From the IMG/VR virus record IMGVR_UViG_2703718799_000033: a DNA stretch of 11,791 nucleotides. The stretch is one strand, 5' to 3'. Positions 1-6,000 of this stretch are shown here, piece after piece (position 1 is the first letter of the stretch; the number at the start of each line of letters is the position of its first letter). The position numbers are program-made. This stretch comes from a virus (taxonomy: Duplodnaviria > Heunggongvirae > Uroviricota > Caudoviricetes).

Positions 1-3000
1 CATTCGCTCACTACAGCTTATCCAACCATCCGGCAACTTGTAAGCCGTCGTTACAGGTTCGGCACCATGAAGCATGGCGGCGATGTTGTTTCTCTTGAGA
101 AAGTTAATACTTTTCAAGGTATCTTCCTCAAGCGTCGAACCGGTGTAGCCATTGGAGCAAGTTTCAGCACGTTTATGATGGTACCTTAATGCAGCAATGC
201 ATTTTCTTATCCCGTCACGGTATATTTCCTCTTCCTCCTCAAGCTCAGCACTGATTTCGACATCCATATCGTGAAGCATTGCTCGCTGCACCTCAGTCAG
301 GGGTACCGGCGCTGGCGGGACGGCGTAGACTTCAATAATCCCATTATCAATAGGCCATTCTCCATCCTTGAGGTAGTCACTTGTGCCGTCAACTTGCTGT
401 TCTGCAATGTGGAATGCACCTATTGGTTTTGCTTCCAGCGATGCCAGAGCAATTCGTGCCAGTTCTTCCGCTTCTTCTGCTGGCAGTACAACGTTGCTAC
501 CAGGTCCGTATGTTTCGCGCCACTGCTTGATTGTCAGTAGTCGCTCTTTGGTTATAGTGGTCATTTGTTAACACTCAAAACTTTATGCCCGGGCGCAAAA
601 GCACGCGTTTTGTCTTTACTTATTCGCCACCCGTCTTTACGGGCCTCTTTTGCACAACCAGACCATGACGTACCGATATACTCACCGAAGTCTGGCACTG
701 GATATACACCTTCCGTACACTGGCGGCAGTCACAATAGAGATGCATGGTGTAACTTGCGGCAATAGCCATATCACTCTCCTTTAGTACGCAAGTGGCTTT
801 TCCAGCGGTTTTGCGCCGCGCTGCGCTTTTTGCAACAACTGTGCCCCATCACACCGCAACACCCCGTCAACCTCACCCGTCTGTTACTAATCCTCACCCA
901 CCGCCAGACACCAACACCGTTTCTGCGAGCTAACAGAATTTTTGCTTTACGGTTTTTCATCGCTTTGCTCTCCTGCGTCTCTTTGCTGCTCGTCGTGCCG
1001 CTGCAATACCGGTATGGCGGCGCTTTGGTGCCGGGATGATGTTGTCAGCCATCAGGACATGTGGCTTTGCAATTAGCGCAGAAGCCCAAAAACGAGTCGG
1101 GTACGGTAACAAGCCGATACATGCCACACGCATTACTCACCTCCTTTGATGCGAATGCCTGTTGCAATGCTGTTTATGATGCTGTCAGTGCATGGGGTAG
1201 AAAGCTGGGCATCTCCAGCAATTTTCATGACCTCAACATCTGCATATCGAATACCGAGGTGTATCAGACCGGCTATGCCTGACTTAAGCCGAGCATTTTC
1301 CATAAATAGAACTTTTGCCCGCTGTTTTTCTGCTTCAAGCTCAACGCGCAGCTTCCCTACCGTTAGCGCAATATCCTCGTTCTCCTGATCGCGGCTTTTG
1401 ATGTATTGCAGGTTTCTTTCCCGTTCATCCAGTAGTGCCAGCACGGTTTCTGGTCCGGTCAGAAATTTGAAGGCGTTGAGCGCATCAATATCCACACCGT
1501 AATCTTTAAGTTCCTGTTCACTTAACAAATCATCATCAACTGGCAACATTAACAGGCGTTCCATTGCTGGAGTTGCACGTTCTGCCGCCTCACGCAGTGC
1601 CTGGTAATTAATTTCGCTCACTGGTTGCCTCCTTTGCGAAGCTCTGCAGCGAAATATACAGCTGCGGAAACAATAGCTGCATGTCGGTATTCACCATCAG
1701 AAAATAAAGAATCTCCCTTAAGTGCATTGACGATACTCTGATGATTTTTTGCCAGCATCTCCACGCCCTGCGCACGTACTTCAGCCAGAAAAGCATCGGT
1801 GGCTGGAGTTTCGCTGTGGTGTAGGGCATCGTTGATAATCATTGCAGCAACACCAGCCTGCCCTGCATCCGTGACCGACACATGCTCAAGAGTTACGGCC
1901 ATTGCGTGTTTCAGTCCGGCATTCTCCGCCGCCAGCGCCGAAAACTTCTCGTGTGCCAACTTAACAGCCGAATCAGCCTGCTTAATTGACTCAATCGCTT
2001 TCTGCTGGTCTTCGGCCAGCGCATTAGCACGCACCAGTTGCACTTCCAGTTGCGTTGCCAAATCGCTGATCAGCTTTGCCACACTGCGCATATCAACGGC
2101 ACCACATTCTGCTTTCAGTTCCGAAGCCATCTCATGCCCGGCGGCAACTAACCCTTTGATATTACTTTCCATCTTTACCCTCGCTTATCCACATAACTTA
2201 TTGATTACATTGATAACTAAAAAGATCGTCGATTCAGAACTCTTCGATATTCCAGCCACCACCTGCTTTCTTTGGTTTAACCGTTACCCCGATGATTCGG
2301 AACGGATACTGATCTGCGGCGACTTTGGTTTTCACCCTGGCGTCGTCGGTCCAGAAACCTTTCACTTCGTGCAGTTCCATCTCGCCGGTGGCGAGCATCA
2401 CAGCAAAATCGGGCGTATAGAACGTGTTGTCAGCTAACCGAAGCTTGATACCCTCAAATCGATACCAGACGATTTCTCCTGCACGTTTACGCAGCTCAAG
2501 GTGCTGGCAATACGCAGATTCTGTTTTGTTCATCTGGCCTGTTTTGAGTCGACCAAGAGCCTGTATCTGTTTTCTCATGATTTACCCCTGAGGTAATTAA
2601 AAACCACATAAGACACGAAATCAATAGATTTTAGAATATTTTATTACCTAACAGGTAATTATCGAAACGTAAAAAAATGCGCTATCGCGCTGGTATTACT
2701 TGATAAATCCTTCCGCCTTTCCTCGCCTGTATTCCTCCATCAGCCACTGCGCCGGTGTTATTCCCCCAAGGGTGGCGGCGTTAGGCATGCACCCGAAACT
2801 TCGCCCTGGTGGATGGTAAACGTCTCTCCCTGTGTCCGGAGGCGTACTCATGGGTTCTGGCTTTGCCTGTATGCTGATCACCGGATCGGGTATCTGCTGT
2901 CCGGAAGCCACCTTTTTCGCCCAATCATCGAGCAGCCTGCGCGCGTGTTTCTCAACCTCTATCTCGCTAAGCTGGCGCTGATACATTGCACGGCGGGTAT

Positions 3001-6000
3001 CACATACGACCCAGTACATAACCGGATGCCGCCACGGGAATCTTTCGGGACCACCAGGATATAAACTTTTTTCCTTGCTGTACCGGTGAAACTCCGTCAT
3101 CACATCGTCAATGGTGACGCCAAGAACCATCTTGCTGTCTTTGCACCACTTGATGAATTGCCCTGGCGACGGCCAGAACGGAGAATCACTGGCGCGGGCG
3201 TGGCGCATACCAGCAGAAACCTGTTCACGGGTTCGGATCCCCCCTTCGGCAAACGCAGCAATCCACTGCTGTTTTGCAGCAACTTCCTGCTCTGGCGTCT
3301 TCAGGTTGGTTACCACTGCCGCCGGAAACAGTTGTTTCAACTGTTTGAAAAGGGCATCAACAAGCCTCTCTGCTGACATGTTCACTACGTTGTCATTGTT
3401 GACGTACTGATGCTCATAACCTGACATGCGAGAAAGAGCTTCTCCGTCACGGTTTTGTATTGCGGTAAAAACGTTGTTCACAAGAAATCCTCCCATGCTT
3501 CAGGGCTGTTCCAGTGCGGAACGTTGTTATCAGGTAATGTTGATTGCTTCTGTCTGCTAATCTGCAGCCGCCTTGCCAGCTTCTGCTCCCACTGCGCCTG
3601 ATGGTATGCCTTACCCTCAGCCATCCAGTAAATTCTGAACTCTGCAAGTTCCTGTGCCGTTGGCAGACTGTCCAGGTAGATCCCCTGCAATGAGCTTTTC
3701 CGAAGAAAGTCATCTGATGGTTGCCATTGTTCATGCATGACAAATTTGCCTAATTGCCCTGGCCCACCAGGAGGAACAAAGTTATTCATCACGGCGTTGT
3801 TTGCGCCGGGGTCATGAGGCACAGAATCCCCGCTTTTTGTCCTGCTCTCCCTCTCTTGGTTAAATGACTGGTTATATGACTGGTTCTGGATCCCGTTTTT
3901 GGGATCATTCAACATCCCGTTTTTGGGATCATTCAACATCCCGTTTTTGGGTATATTCCCGTTTTCGGTAACATTACCGTTTTCGGGTTCATTACCCCCT
4001 TCCCGGTTGCCTTTAATGTTCCCGTTTTTGGTTATATTAAGAGAGAAAACCCGCACTCTTTTCGTCGCTCCCTTTCTCTCTCCGGTATCTGAAATAAGCC
4101 CCATTTTCATGAGCGATATAAGCCCGGCCTGCACGGTTTTTTTATTCAGGCAAGTGTCTTTAACGAGGCGTTCTATGCTGGGGTAGCAGAGGTTATATTC
4201 ATCGGCTCTGTCAGCCATCGAGAGCAGTATGAGCTTTAATGATGAGCTACCTGGATCTGTCTCCCAGGCCCAATCTGTTGCATGTCTGCTCATGATTAAT
4301 CTCCGCTATCAGCTTGAGTGTTGTGGGGAGGAATTAATCATGATCTGCTTAATCTCTGCCCTGATGCGACGGTTTGATTCCATGGTGCACTCAACACAGT
4401 GTCCGTTGTAAACCCAGCGTTCACTGTCATGTCCATGCTTACATGGTTTTCCGGTGTAGTAGCGTTTAAGTCCGCGCTTTGCGGCATCAATACGTGTAAT
4501 GATTTCCATGGTAAGCCCTGTTATTAGTATTGGGATTACGGTCATTTTGTGCTGACACAAAAAAAAGATCAACCAGATTTGGTTTTTTATTACCTTTGAG
4601 GTACGAATAGATATGAAAAGACCGCCGGGTGGCGGTCTACAGAGGGTTGTAGCTGGATATCATGAGTAGAAGAAGTATGCCAGTTCTGCTTTTGAGCGCA
4701 GCCATTGTCTTGTTTTACAGGCTTTAAAAAGCCCATTCATCAATACCTTACCTGGCATTTTGCGCTTACCTGTTAAGTGAGTCTGGATATAGTGACTCGT
4801 TGTTCCGGCTTCCTGTGCGAAGGCTTCACGCTCATCCGGAGTAAGTGCAAGCCAGTGCTTTTTGAAATCGAAATGTCCGTTATCGCTCATAGCTATTGCC
4901 TGATATTTATTTCAGATAATAAATATTCACCCATAAGGTAACAAAAATCAAGGATAGTTACCTATGAGGTGCATTTACCTGTTGGGTAATATTGCTTTAA
5001 ATTGAATCATCTACTGATTCATATATGAGGCGATTTTCCAGAAAATGAAAAGTATCCAGGACGTCCGCAGGCAAAATCTCAACGACTTGATCGACCGTGA
5101 ATTCAATGGTGTTCAGACGCGGATGGCAGAAAAACTTGGAACTCAGGCAAATCTGGTAAACCGCTGGGCTCTTGGCAAGAAGGTTATCGGCGACCAGGTT
5201 GCACGAAAAATTGAAGCTGCCGCCAATAAACCCCGTAACTGGCTTGATATTGATCGCTCGCTTTCTCAGGAGGGTTTTCAGCCTGTCGGCCCGAGCGATA
5301 TAGGTCAGCTGGCGGCTCACAACCTGGAACGCTGGATGAGCGAAAGCCGCGACCTTTCAACGCAGGGAAAACTACACCGCGCATCCGGCGTCGCCCAAGT
5401 GACAATCAGCCGCCTGTTAAACAATGAGGTCAGCGTTTCCATTTCCACCCTGGAGAATGTTGCATCCGCATTCGGGCGTCACGGCTATGAATTACTGATT
5501 CACCCGCACGACCCTGCGACCATCAACTATGATCGCTCGCGCTACGCATTGTTACCCGAAACCGAGAAAGCAAAGATCGAAAGTTACATTGAATTTGTCA
5601 TCAACCAGAACGAAAAAAACAAACAATAAAATCATATTTTTCAGTAAGTAAGCCGCCAGAAGGCGGCTTTTTTATTGCCTATTCGATTACCTAATGGGTA
5701 ATTTTTTTAACTCATATCTATTGACATCAAACCAGATACGCATAATTATTACCTCAACGATAACAGGCCGAGGCAACAAGTTATGCAGTGGAAAATCATC
5801 AACGGTTGGTACTGCGTTACTGCATGCGGATTCATGAGCTGGAAGTTCCGCACCTTACAGGAAGGTATTAAGTGGGCTTTCGTCAGCAAAGAAGCTCGCG
5901 ATGTGGCCAACGATAACGAGATATGGGAGGGCTGATAATGAACGTTAATCAGCAGAAAAATCTTCAAAAAATCATGCTGGCATTCGACAAGGACTACCGC

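What the first reader, a model, noticed from the sequence alone, without database searches (positions are those of the whole stretch)
2581..5764. One operator family (TTACC-N5-GGTAA) recurs at eight sites and organises three promoter regions
Palindromes fitting (A)TTACC-N5-GGTAA(T) occur at 2582-2596, 2643-2659, 4590-4604 (degenerate), 4927-4941, 4958-4972, 4975-4989, 5686-5702 and 5749-5763. Two promoters share the same layout: operator, about 20 bp, ATCTATTGA with -35, 17-bp spacer, -10, second operator abutting the -10; the operator centres are 62 bp apart in both. A third, degenerate copy (TCATATCTATTCG plus a half-operator) lies at 4590-4618. This looks like the complete operator set of the tandem-HTH repressor, apparently spread by promoter-cassette duplication.
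Basis: seen in the sequence. Interest (0 to 1): 0.6.

Follow-up and report, generated by a model that had tools for sequence, protein, structure and literature searches.

The report
Repressor operators of a phiV10-like prophage
The repeated TTACC-N5-GGTAA palindromes are real and are almost certainly the binding sites of the prophage's lysogeny repressor, but the same motif is already annotated in the related phage epsilon15, so this is a sound and fairly ordinary finding.

Summary
All eight sites exist at the stated coordinates. They are the eight best hits of a weight matrix trained only on other phages, and they lie in four intergenic gaps that make up 4.8% of the window. There are 4 perfect matches against 0.00 expected, and 7 matches with at most one mismatch against 0.24 expected.

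The window is the early region of a phiV10-like (Uetakevirus) prophage. Its 194-aa repressor is identical to phiV10 gp40 and ZX5 ORF21, and is a full-length homologue (42% identity, E 4e-42) of the crystallised SPC32H Rep. The epsilon15 GenBank record already labels ATTACC-N5-GGTAAT as repressor-binding sites.

The motif and its layout recur in every lineage examined: pairs 62 bp apart bracketing two promoters, and a 31+17 bp triplet between rep and the cro-like gene. Across 80 prophages with the identical repressor, the half-sites are frozen while the central 5 bp drift.

Two parts of the interpretation fail. The set is not complete, because a near-identical whole prophage has at least 15 sites, including sites at late, lysis, ant and int regions. 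Recent promoter-cassette duplication is also not supported.

In SPC32H Rep the second HTH-like fold is a dimerisation domain, not a second DNA reader. Verdict: a new member of a known kind, of modest interest.

The parts
5045..5629 (+). rep: lysogeny repressor (194 aa). Domains: N-terminal HTH DNA-binding domain, middle HTH-like dimerisation domain, C-terminal tetramerisation and Ant-binding domain.
   Evidence: 100% identical to phiV10 gp40 and ZX5 ORF21. E 4e-42 and 42% identity over residues 1-190 to SPC32H Rep, PDB 5D50. Pfam HTH_3 at 106-147 and a YdaS-like HTH at 21-61, with no S24 peptidase domain. Recognition helix NLVNRW is invariant in six lineages.
5687..5701 (.). PL upstream operator (perfect), centred about -62 from the predicted PL start.
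   Evidence: 22.0 bits. Half-sites invariant and centre variable in 79 relatives.
5721..5749 (+). PL promoter: TTGACA, 17-bp spacer, AATTAT. Drives 5783 onwards (small ORFs, exonuclease, RecT, AlpA-like, PerC-like, methylase).
   Evidence: Best sigma-70 match in the region, 10 of 12. CTATTGAC and the spacing are conserved in five lineages.
5749..5763 (.). PL downstream operator, centred on the predicted start site. Carries a rare G->A change at 5760 (GGTAA to GATAA).
   Evidence: 14.2 bits. 78 of 79 relatives have an intact GGTAA half-site at this position.
5650..5669 (+). Intrinsic terminator after rep. It insulates rep from PL.
   Evidence: Annotated at the same place in phiV10.
4927..4941 (.). 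ORa: operator inside the core of the leftward promoter for the cro-like gene. -35 candidates are TTGATT 4951-4946 or TTGTTA 4944-4939.
   Evidence: 16.8 bits. The AAAAATCAA block is conserved in all lineages.
4958..4972 (.). ORb: weak operator (two mismatches). Its degenerate half GGTGC is itself conserved. It lies 31 bp from ORa.
   Evidence: 13.9 bits.
4975..4989 (.). ORc: perfect operator abutting ORb (17 bp centre to centre). It overlaps the likely -35 of the rep promoter. It is identical in 80 of 80 relatives, including its central 5 bp.
   Evidence: The promoter assignment is inference.
4660..4890 (-). cro-like gene (76 aa, HTH AGTTSHYIQTHL), the first gene of the rightward-equivalent early operon.
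   Evidence: phrog_35 transcriptional repressor, E 5.6e-13. 58-84% identical across lineages.
4619..4638 (-). Intrinsic terminator after the cro-like gene.
   Evidence: Annotated in phiV10.
4590..4604 (.). Ot: conserved weak operator (one good half-site, one degenerate) immediately downstream of that terminator. In the window it lies 337 bp from ORa.
   Evidence: 17.4 bits. Present in most lineages at 326-341 bp from ORa. Half-site ATTACC invariant in 80 relatives.
2644..2658 (.). P3 upstream operator (perfect), centred about -62.
   Evidence: 23.8 bits. 34 central-5-bp alleles in 76 relatives, with half-sites intact.
2596..2624 (-). P3 promoter: TTGATT 2624-2619, 17-bp spacer, TTTAAT 2601-2596. 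Drives the DUF1064 gene 2578-2234 and the Ead/Ea22-type genes beyond it.
   Evidence: Read from the sequence. The whole terminator-operator-CTATTGAT-operator-ATG layout is conserved in nine lineages. It did not pass the consensus scanner because the -10 lacks A at position 2.
2582..2596 (.). P3 downstream operator (perfect), centred on the predicted start site. It contains the ribosome-binding site of the first gene (ATG at 2578).
   Evidence: (21.8 bits).

Best explanation
These are the operators of an SPC32H/epsilon15-type repressor (Rep) in a phiV10-like temperate podovirus prophage of E. coli. Rep is made from a promoter in the rep/cro intergenic region.

Pairs of its N-terminal HTH domains read the two TTACC half-sites of each 15-17 bp palindrome.

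At PL (5721-5749, +) and at P3 (2624-2596, -), one operator is centred on the predicted transcription start and abuts the -10. A second operator sits 62 bp upstream, about six helical turns away and so on the same DNA face. I infer that one Rep tetramer, which has two DNA-binding units, holds both operators and shuts the promoter between them.

Between rep and the cro-like gene, ORa lies inside the leftward promoter. ORb is three helical turns from ORa. ORc abuts ORb over the likely rep promoter, which would give repression of the lytic promoter and autoregulation of rep.

Ot, just after the terminator downstream of the cro-like gene, is a weak auxiliary site. It may act as a roadblock or as a looping partner.

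The window holds only the early-region part of a phage-wide regulon.

Induction is not by RecA-dependent cleavage. It works through antirepressor (Ant) proteins that bind the Rep C-terminal domains. The LexA-controlled small ant gene lies outside the window.

Shown here: the sites, their enrichment, their positions relative to the predicted promoters, their conservation, and the homology of Rep. Taken from the literature: Rep binds palindromic DNA as a tetramer and is released by Ant, and over-expression of this exact protein silences lytic genes. Inferred: one tetramer per operator pair, the start sites, and the rep promoter.
For: Identity of the element: 97-98% nucleotide identity to phiV10 and relatives across 2200-5800, with the same gene order.

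Repressor: identical to phiV10 gp40 and ZX5 ORF21. Full-length homologue of SPC32H Rep, PDB 5D50/5D4Z. Over-expression of the identical ZX5 protein cut holin and endolysin transcripts by 99.97-99.99% (PMC9782041).

Motif already assigned: the epsilon15 record AY150271.2 annotates seven ATTACC-N5-GGTAAT sites as protein_bind 'repressor'.

Enrichment.

Conservation of layout: pairs 61-63 bp apart at both promoters, and 30/31+17 bp in OR, in 10 lineages whose Rep proteins are as little as 41-45% identical to the window's. 62 bp in 76/76 (P3) and 76/79 (PL) prophages with the identical Rep, and 62/63, 17 and 30 are the commonest distances in 70 epsilon15/Klebsiella-type loci.

Selection footprint: 5 of 80 half-site columns are variable (mean minor-allele frequency 0.005), against 24 of 40 central columns (0.110).

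Link to Rep: the recognition helix NLVNRW is invariant wherever the half-site is present. Distant N-terminal homologues with other recognition helices lack the motif. The base after TTACC and the GC content of the centre track the Rep group and not the much more conserved cro-like protein. After TTACC, the phiV10 group has 3% A and the epsilon15 group 44% A; central GC is 0.34 against 0.19.

Tetramer: Rep binds DNA as a tetramer whose DNA-binding pairs come from different dimers, and a C-terminal p53-like looping/tetramerisation domain is present (PMC9638917; PMC9986798). The C-terminal residues are strongly conserved.

Ant: a near-identical prophage has an 85-aa protein 87% identical to SPC32H Ant, behind a perfect LexA box.
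Against: There is no binding or transcription data for these sites in this phage. The primary SPC32H papers (PMC3807360, PMC4983836) and the epsilon15 genome paper (PMC2698709) could not be read. I therefore do not know which operators were mapped experimentally, or whether a tetramer was shown to bridge two operators.

The start sites and the rep promoter are predictions. The P3 -10 (TTTAAT) lacks the usual A at position 2, and no convincing rep promoter passed the scanner.

A 62-bp loop is short and would need strong bending.

ORb and ORc are 17 bp apart, on roughly opposite faces, which does not fit the same-face rule.

The cro-like protein has an invariant HTH and could bind the same sites.

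The PL downstream operator in this window carries a rare half-site mutation, so repression of PL may be weakened here.
Confidence: 0.85

Rival explanations
1. The sites are bound mainly by the cro-like protein (4660-4890), or shared equally with it as in lambda. Their conservation would then reflect that protein and not Rep.
For: The cro-like HTH (AGTTSHYIQTHL) is invariant and the protein is 58-84% identical across lineages that all keep the TTACC half-site. It matches a PHROG of transcriptional repressors. In lambda-type switches Cro and CI share operators (established knowledge).
Against: The operator subtype (the base after TTACC, and the GC content of the centre) follows the Rep groups and not the cro-like protein. 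The epsilon15 record assigns the motif to the repressor. Rep of SPC32H is reported to bind palindromic sites as a tetramer. A second conserved palindrome, AACCATATATGGTT, is an equally good candidate target for the cro-like protein. The two readings are not mutually exclusive.
Confidence: 0.1
2. Each Rep monomer reads DNA with both of its HTH domains (a true tandem-HTH reader). The palindromes would then be bound by simple dimers acting independently at each site, with no bridging of the 62-bp pairs.
For: Pfam finds two HTH-type regions, at 21-61 and 106-147. phiV10 annotates two HTH motifs.
Against: In the crystallised homologue the second domain is a dimerisation domain, and dimeric Rep binds DNA only weakly. 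The sites are symmetric, with two identical 5-bp half-sites, as expected for two copies of one reading head. The 62-bp and 31-bp spacings are conserved to within 1 bp across lineages whose Rep proteins are as little as 41-45% identical to the window's, which is hard to explain if sites act independently.
Confidence: 0.08
3. The repeats are neutral leftovers of duplicated promoter cassettes, or chance palindromes, with no regulatory role.
For: PL and P3 share ATCTATTGA and the same layout.
Against: Enrichment is far above the shuffled controls. Half-sites are frozen while centres and flanks drift in 80 relatives. The sites sit on the -10/+1 of the predicted promoters. Over-expression of the identical repressor silences lytic genes.
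Confidence: 0.01

Closest known systems
Rep/Ant lytic switch of Salmonella phage SPC32H (Kim & Ryu 2013; Kim et al. 2016; PDB 5D50, 5D4Z)
   Same: Rep is homologous over its full length (42% identity, E 4e-42). It has the same three-part architecture, no autocleavage domain, and the same TTACC-N5-GGTAA sites at the same genome positions. The nearest complete relative carries an Ant 87% identical to SPC32H Ant, behind a LexA box.
   Different: The Rep belongs to a different sequence group. Its operators prefer a pyrimidine after TTACC and have GC-richer centres. PL has two operators instead of three. The window itself carries no small ant gene and no LexA box. It does carry an extra AntA-Ant fusion gene at 9853-10509.
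Repressor-binding sites annotated in phage epsilon15 (GenBank AY150271.2)
   Same: The identical consensus ATTACC-N5-GGTAAT, at PL and downstream of the replication genes. The PL pair has the same 62-bp spacing.
   Different: The epsilon15 record marks only seven perfect sites. It omits the three OR sites, the P3 downstream site and Ot, all of which are present there too. The phiV10 record annotates no operators at all.
Lambda CI/Cro switch with tripartite OR and OL
   Same: Divergent repressor and cro-type genes with three operators between them. There is a separate leftward early promoter under the same repressor. Terminators follow the first early genes.
   Different: There is no S24 autocleavage domain. 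The early-left promoter is bracketed by two operators 62 bp apart, not covered by three adjacent ones. A third repressor-controlled promoter follows the replication genes. Operators also sit at late, lysis and int regions.
434 and P22 c2 repressors (indirect readout of non-contacted central bases)
   Same: The outer half-sites are invariant and the centre is variable. The composition of the centre differs between immunity groups. This is a resemblance drawn from general knowledge and was not tested.
   Different: The proteins are unrelated beyond the HTH fold. No affinity data exist here.
Rco of plasmid pLS20 (TetDloop tetramer that loops DNA)
   Same: An N-terminal HTH plus a C-terminal p53-like tetramerisation domain. 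PMC9986798 proposes that SPC32H Rep shares this fold.
   Different: Rco loops DNA between distant operator clusters using several tetramers. Here the paired sites are only 62 bp apart, and looping is my inference.

Membership tests
SPC32H/epsilon15-type Rep-Ant switch (Uetakevirus) | The repressor is homologous to SPC32H Rep over all three domains (DNA-binding, dimerisation, tetramerisation/Ant-binding). | tested here: met
   phmmer against PDB: 5D50_A E 4e-42 covering residues 1-190, and 5D4Z_A E 4.1e-20 covering 89-190. The alignment shows invariant C-terminal residues.
SPC32H/epsilon15-type Rep-Ant switch (Uetakevirus) | The repressor lacks a RecA-stimulated autocleavage (peptidase S24) domain. 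| tested here: met
   Pfam finds only HTH families in the 194-aa protein.
SPC32H/epsilon15-type Rep-Ant switch (Uetakevirus) | Palindromic operators of the ATTACC-N5-GGTAAT type at PL, at the rep/cro region and downstream of the replication genes. | tested here: met
   for the window. for epsilon15 and SPC32H at orthologous positions.
SPC32H/epsilon15-type Rep-Ant switch (Uetakevirus) | A small antirepressor Ant expressed from a LexA-controlled promoter. | tested here: inconclusive
   Absent from the window: the best LexA weight-matrix score there is 10.2 bits, below the weakest training box (13.2). In a prophage 99.85% identical over window 1771-11791 it is present outside the window's span: an 85-aa protein 87% identical to SPC32H Ant, with a LexA box scoring 27.3 bits. 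The window's own genome could not be inspected.
SPC32H/epsilon15-type Rep-Ant switch (Uetakevirus) | Rep binds DNA as a tetramer, with DNA-binding pairs formed across dimers, and is released by Ant. | not testable with these tools
   Known for SPC32H only through citing papers. This needs biochemistry.
SPC32H/epsilon15-type Rep-Ant switch (Uetakevirus) | Uetakevirus early-region synteny (int, methylase, AlpA-like, RecT/exonuclease, rep, cro-like, DnaT-like, P-like, DUF1064/RuvC). | tested here: met
Lambda-type CI/Cro switch | The repressor has a LexA-like C-terminal autocleavage domain. | tested here: not met
   No S24 domain. The C-terminus is homologous to the SPC32H Rep tetramerisation domain.
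Lambda-type CI/Cro switch | Three operators between divergent repressor and cro genes. | tested here: met
   ORa, ORb and ORc at 4927-4989, between 4890 and 5045.
Lambda-type CI/Cro switch | OL consists of three adjacent operators overlapping PL. | tested here: not met
   PL has two operators 62 bp apart that bracket the promoter.

The most novel reading that the evidence does not exclude
The novel reading has two parts.

1. Promoter clamp. Each early promoter is shut by a single Rep tetramer that grips two operators exactly six helical turns apart (about -62 and +1). The three-turn ORa-ORb pair would work the same way.

2. Shared recognition across the genus. All uetakeviruses share one half-site, a near-identical cro-like protein and a near-identical Ant. 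Immunity groups would then differ only in the non-contacted centre and the sixth base of the operator. This predicts partial cross-immunity and cross-induction between phages whose repressors are only about 42% identical. It also implies that Rep directly represses late, lysis and int promoters across the whole genome.
Probability: 0.3. Interest if true: 0.5.

Novelty: new member of a known kind. Interest (0 to 1): 0.3.

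Why it matters
phiV10-type prophages with this exact repressor are very common in E. coli. There were 80 of 80 returned IMG/VR loci and 15 phage records with at least 99% identical Rep (13 of them 100%), and the region matches thousands of E. coli records.

A correct operator map explains how these prophages stay silent and which promoters fire on induction. It also gives ready-made parts for phiV10-based reporter phages.

The strictly conserved 62-bp and 31-bp spacings give a concrete, testable geometry for how the unusual tetrameric Rep sits on DNA. 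A citing paper says this mechanism "has not been extensively characterized".

Nothing here overturns existing knowledge.

Tried and rejected
1. LexA box in the window. The palindrome CTGATATTTATTTCAG (4900-4915) fits CTG-N10-CAG, but it is not among the six best hits of a LexA weight matrix (all at or below 10.2 bits; the weakest training box scores 13.2). The ant-proximal box in the relative scores 27.3. The training boxes were recalled from memory. Rejected as a LexA site; its function is unknown.

2. The 4590-4618 element as a third promoter. I found no acceptable -35/-10 at any spacing by eye, and the scanner finds none on the minus strand there. The TCATATCTAT string is conserved only in the phiV10 group.

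3. An alternative P3 promoter with the upstream operator in its spacer (TCGATA-16-TAAAAT). Its -35 region is not conserved in other lineages, so the CTATTGAT promoter is preferred.

4. Recent cassette duplication. Tested by comparing paralogous with orthologous identity and by a shuffle test. Not supported.

5. Reading the primary papers (PMC2698709, PMC4983836, PMC3807360). They are not held. A sequence-string literature search and a title search found nothing that maps these operators.

6. Distant N-terminal homologues (Paraburkholderia, Hydrogenovibrio, Thiomicrospira) as a covariation test. They have different recognition helices and no TTACC motif. This is consistent with Rep being the binder, but weak.

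7. The first viral-contig scan returned only identical repressors. It was useless for diversity but useful for the selection footprint.

Full report
**What the window is.** Megablast of 2200-5800 finds 97-98% identity over the full length to phiV10, phiv142-3, PAS61 and related Escherichia podoviruses of the genus Uetakevirus. The phiV10 annotation gives the same gene order as the window. In window coordinates the genes are:
- integrase, 10541-11791 (-)
- methylase, 8633-9283
- AlpA-like, 7983-8231
- RecT, 7052-7933
- exonuclease, 6234-7055
- repressor, 5045-5629 (+)
- cro-like gene, 4660-4890 (-)
- a small ORF, 4309-4512 (-)
- DnaT-like initiator, 3478-4293 (-)
- lambda-P-like protein, 2696-3496 (-)
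- DUF1064 protein, 2234-2578 (-)
- Ead/Ea22-type genes further left

A complete E. coli prophage that is 99.85% identical to window 1771-11791 sits at the 3' end of guaA. That is the integration site reported for the relative vB_EcoP_ZX5 (PMC9782041).

The consensus TTACC-N5-GGTAA has 4 perfect matches against 0.00 expected, 7 matches with at most one mismatch against 0.24, and 12 with at most two against 3.49. To avoid circularity I trained a 17-bp weight matrix on 28 sites from four other phages and prophages. The next hit scores 10.6 bits, inside the cro-like gene, and the one after that 7.2 bits. At 12 bits or more, 8 are observed against a mean of 0.09 in 500 controls. All eight fall in four intergenic gaps that make up 571 of 11791 bp. 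Both operator pairs are exactly 62 bp apart, with centres at 2589/2651 and 5694/5756.

**The protein that reads the sites.** The 194-aa product of 5045-5629 is 100% identical to phiV10 gp40 and to ORF21 of ZX5. Over-expression of ZX5 ORF21 reduced holin and endolysin transcripts by 99.97-99.99% (PMC9782041).

It is a full-length homologue of the Rep repressor of Salmonella phage SPC32H (PDB 5D50, E 4e-42, 42% identity). According to papers that cite the structural work:
- SPC32H Rep has an N-terminal DNA-binding domain, a middle dimerisation domain and a C-terminal tetramerisation domain that also binds the antirepressor Ant.
- It binds palindromic DNA as a tetramer in which each DNA-binding pair is formed across dimers.
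- The dimeric form binds weakly (PMC9638917; PMC9986798).

The 'tandem HTH' seen by Pfam is therefore one reading head plus a dimerisation module. There is no autocleavage domain.

**The motif is already assigned in a relative.** The GenBank record of epsilon15 annotates seven sites as protein_bind 'repressor'. Their sequences are ATTACC-N5-GGTAAT. They lie upstream of terS, upstream of gp3, next to the tailspike gene, three after the repressor gene, and one after the replication genes. The phiV10 record has no such annotation, and the ZX5 paper only speculates about a 'PL operon'. I could not read the primary SPC32H or epsilon15 papers.

**Comparative evidence.** The layout recurs in ten further lineages: Tyrion, BUCT554, BUCT711, epsilon15, SPC32H, and prophages of Superficieibacter, Erwinia, Klebsiella, Citrobacter and Scandinavium. 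In these lineages I see:
- a pair 61-62 bp apart downstream of the replication genes
- three sites spaced 30/31 and 17 bp between rep and the cro-like gene
- a pair 61-63 bp apart after rep, with a further site 74-80 bp downstream in the epsilon15 group
- in most lineages, a weak site 326-341 bp from ORa

The recognition helix NLVNRW is invariant in all six aligned Rep proteins, although overall identity falls to 42%. Distant proteins that share only the N-terminus and have other recognition helices lack the motif.

In 80 viral contigs with the identical Rep, only 5 of 80 half-site columns vary (mean minor-allele frequency 0.005). By contrast, 24 of 40 central columns vary (0.110). All 80 loci keep Ot, ORa, ORb and ORc, and the 62-bp spacing holds in 76/76 (P3) and 76/79 (PL). 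This is the pattern expected of a contacted half-site and a largely uncontacted centre.

**Operator subtype follows the repressor group.** In the phiV10 group the base after TTACC is T or C in 92% of distinct sites and A in 3%. In the epsilon15/Klebsiella group it is A in 44%. Central GC content is 0.34 against 0.19. The cro-like protein is much more conserved across these groups (58-84% identity, invariant HTH). Some late-region sites are nevertheless identical in phiV10 and SPC32H, for example ATTACCTTAAAGGTATA upstream of int. The two Rep groups probably still recognise a common core.

**How the sites organise the promoters.**

*PL.* This is the best sigma-70 match in the region: TTGACA 5721-5726, a 17-bp spacer, then AATTAT 5744-5749. 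The downstream operator begins at the last base of the -10 and is centred at 5756, about where transcription should start. The upstream operator is centred 62 bp earlier.

*P3.* This promoter reads leftward. It follows the weak terminator downstream of the P-like gene, which is annotated in phiV10. Its elements are: upstream operator, ATCTATTGA with TTGATT at 2624-2619, a 17-bp spacer, TTTAAT at 2601-2596, and a downstream operator centred at 2589. That operator contains the ribosome-binding site of the gene starting at 2578. The arrangement is conserved base-for-base in position in nine lineages, even where the first gene differs.

*OR.* ORa lies in the core of the leftward promoter, whichever of two overlapping -35/-10 assignments is right. 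ORb is 31 bp from ORa, three helical turns. ORc abuts ORb, and its left half (TTTACC) is the most plausible -35 of the rep promoter. ORc is identical in 80/80 relatives, centre included, which suggests an overlapping promoter constraint. The start sites and the rep promoter are inference.

*Geometry.* Spacings of 62 and 31 bp are close to six and three helical turns. Together with the reported tetramer carrying two DNA-binding units, this leads me to propose that one tetramer grips each pair. That step is inferred, not shown.

*Ot.* Ot (4590-4604) follows the terminator at 4619-4638 and has no credible promoter around it. It may block read-through into the replication genes or pair with OR.

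- The set is not complete. phiV10 and the near-identical guaA prophage carry at least 15 sites with at most one mismatch, all intergenic. The extra ones are two just upstream of terS, one upstream of the portal operon, one between ant and tailspike, one after ant, one after the Bro-N gene, one between the holin and gtrA genes, and one about 45 bp upstream of int, just past the window's right edge.
- Recent cassette duplication is not supported. Orthologous PL or P3 cassettes are 0.70-0.71 identical, while PL against P3 averages 0.51. Outside ATCTATTGA the window's two cassettes share 15 of 36 positions (P=0.11). A common origin before the genus diversified remains possible.

**Induction.** The window has no LexA box. 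In the near-identical prophage an 85-aa protein 87% identical to SPC32H Ant lies next to the tailspike gene, behind a perfect LexA box. This matches the published LexA-Ant-Rep pathway as summarised in citing papers.

The window does encode a 218-aa protein at 9853-10509. Its C-terminal 75 residues are 40% identical to the whole SPC32H Ant (E 2e-20). They are fused to an AntA-type N-domain. This is a possible additional antirepressor with its own, non-LexA, palindromic control site.

**Verdict.** The system is a new, well-behaved member of the SPC32H/epsilon15 Rep-operator kind. The features that may be new are the strictly phased operator pairs, the genome-wide spread of sites, the group-specific sixth base and centre, and a second conserved motif. 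All of them need experiments.

Noticed in passing
window 2602-2612 (-) and 4571-4584; phiV10 L006 3308, 20921, 24739, 33135, 35116: A second conserved motif, CATATRTGGTT (as a full palindrome, AACCATATATGGTT), accompanies Rep operators. It lies in the P3 spacer, directly after Ot (degenerate in the window as AACCAGATTTGGTT), and 7 nt upstream of the -10 of the portal-operon, tailspike and lysis promoters in phiV10, SPC32H and epsilon15. phiV10 has 8 hits with at most one mismatch, against 1.2 in shuffles. The binder is unknown. Candidates are the cro-like protein and the PerC-like activator (8341-8640).
   Followed up: partly
window 9853-10509 (+), with palindrome 9801-9823: A 218-aa protein that fuses an AntA/AntB N-domain to a C-terminal domain 40% identical to the entire SPC32H antirepressor Ant (E 2e-20). 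The same C-domain (96% nucleotide identity) ends the Bro-N protein in the late region of the near-identical prophage. This gene is absent from phiV10. It is preceded by TTGACA and a 23-bp palindrome, ATCACCAGCTA-C-TAACTGGTGAT, which is neither a Rep site nor a LexA site.
   Followed up: partly
window 4900-4915: The palindrome CTGATATTTATTTCAG lies between the predicted leftward promoter and the start of the cro-like gene. It is conserved in the phiV10 group only. It looks like CTG-N10-CAG but scores too low to be a LexA box. Its function is unknown.
   Followed up: yes
window 5760: The PL downstream operator reads GATAA where 78 of 79 related prophages with the identical repressor read GGTAA. 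This is a rare change in an otherwise frozen half-site position and might weaken repression of PL in this prophage.
   Followed up: partly
window 3890-3996: Tandem iterons inside the DnaT-like initiator gene: a 24-bp unit in 2.6 copies at 100% identity, then an 18-bp unit in 3.1 copies. This is probably the replication origin, as in lambdoid O genes.
   Followed up: no
window 4766-4780: A ninth, weaker operator-like site (TTACCTGTTAAGTGA, 10.6 bits) lies inside the cro-like gene and is also present in phiV10. It may be a weak internal site or a chance match.
   Followed up: no
L100 9424-9488 (outside the window): In the near-identical prophage, a perfect Rep operator lies 47 bp from the perfect LexA box of the small ant gene. 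The antirepressor promoter region may therefore be under both LexA and Rep.
   Followed up: no
window 6234-7933: The exonuclease (6234-7055) and RecT (7052-7933) are separate overlapping genes here. The phiV10 record annotates a single fused recET gene, which may be an annotation or sequence difference.
   Followed up: no
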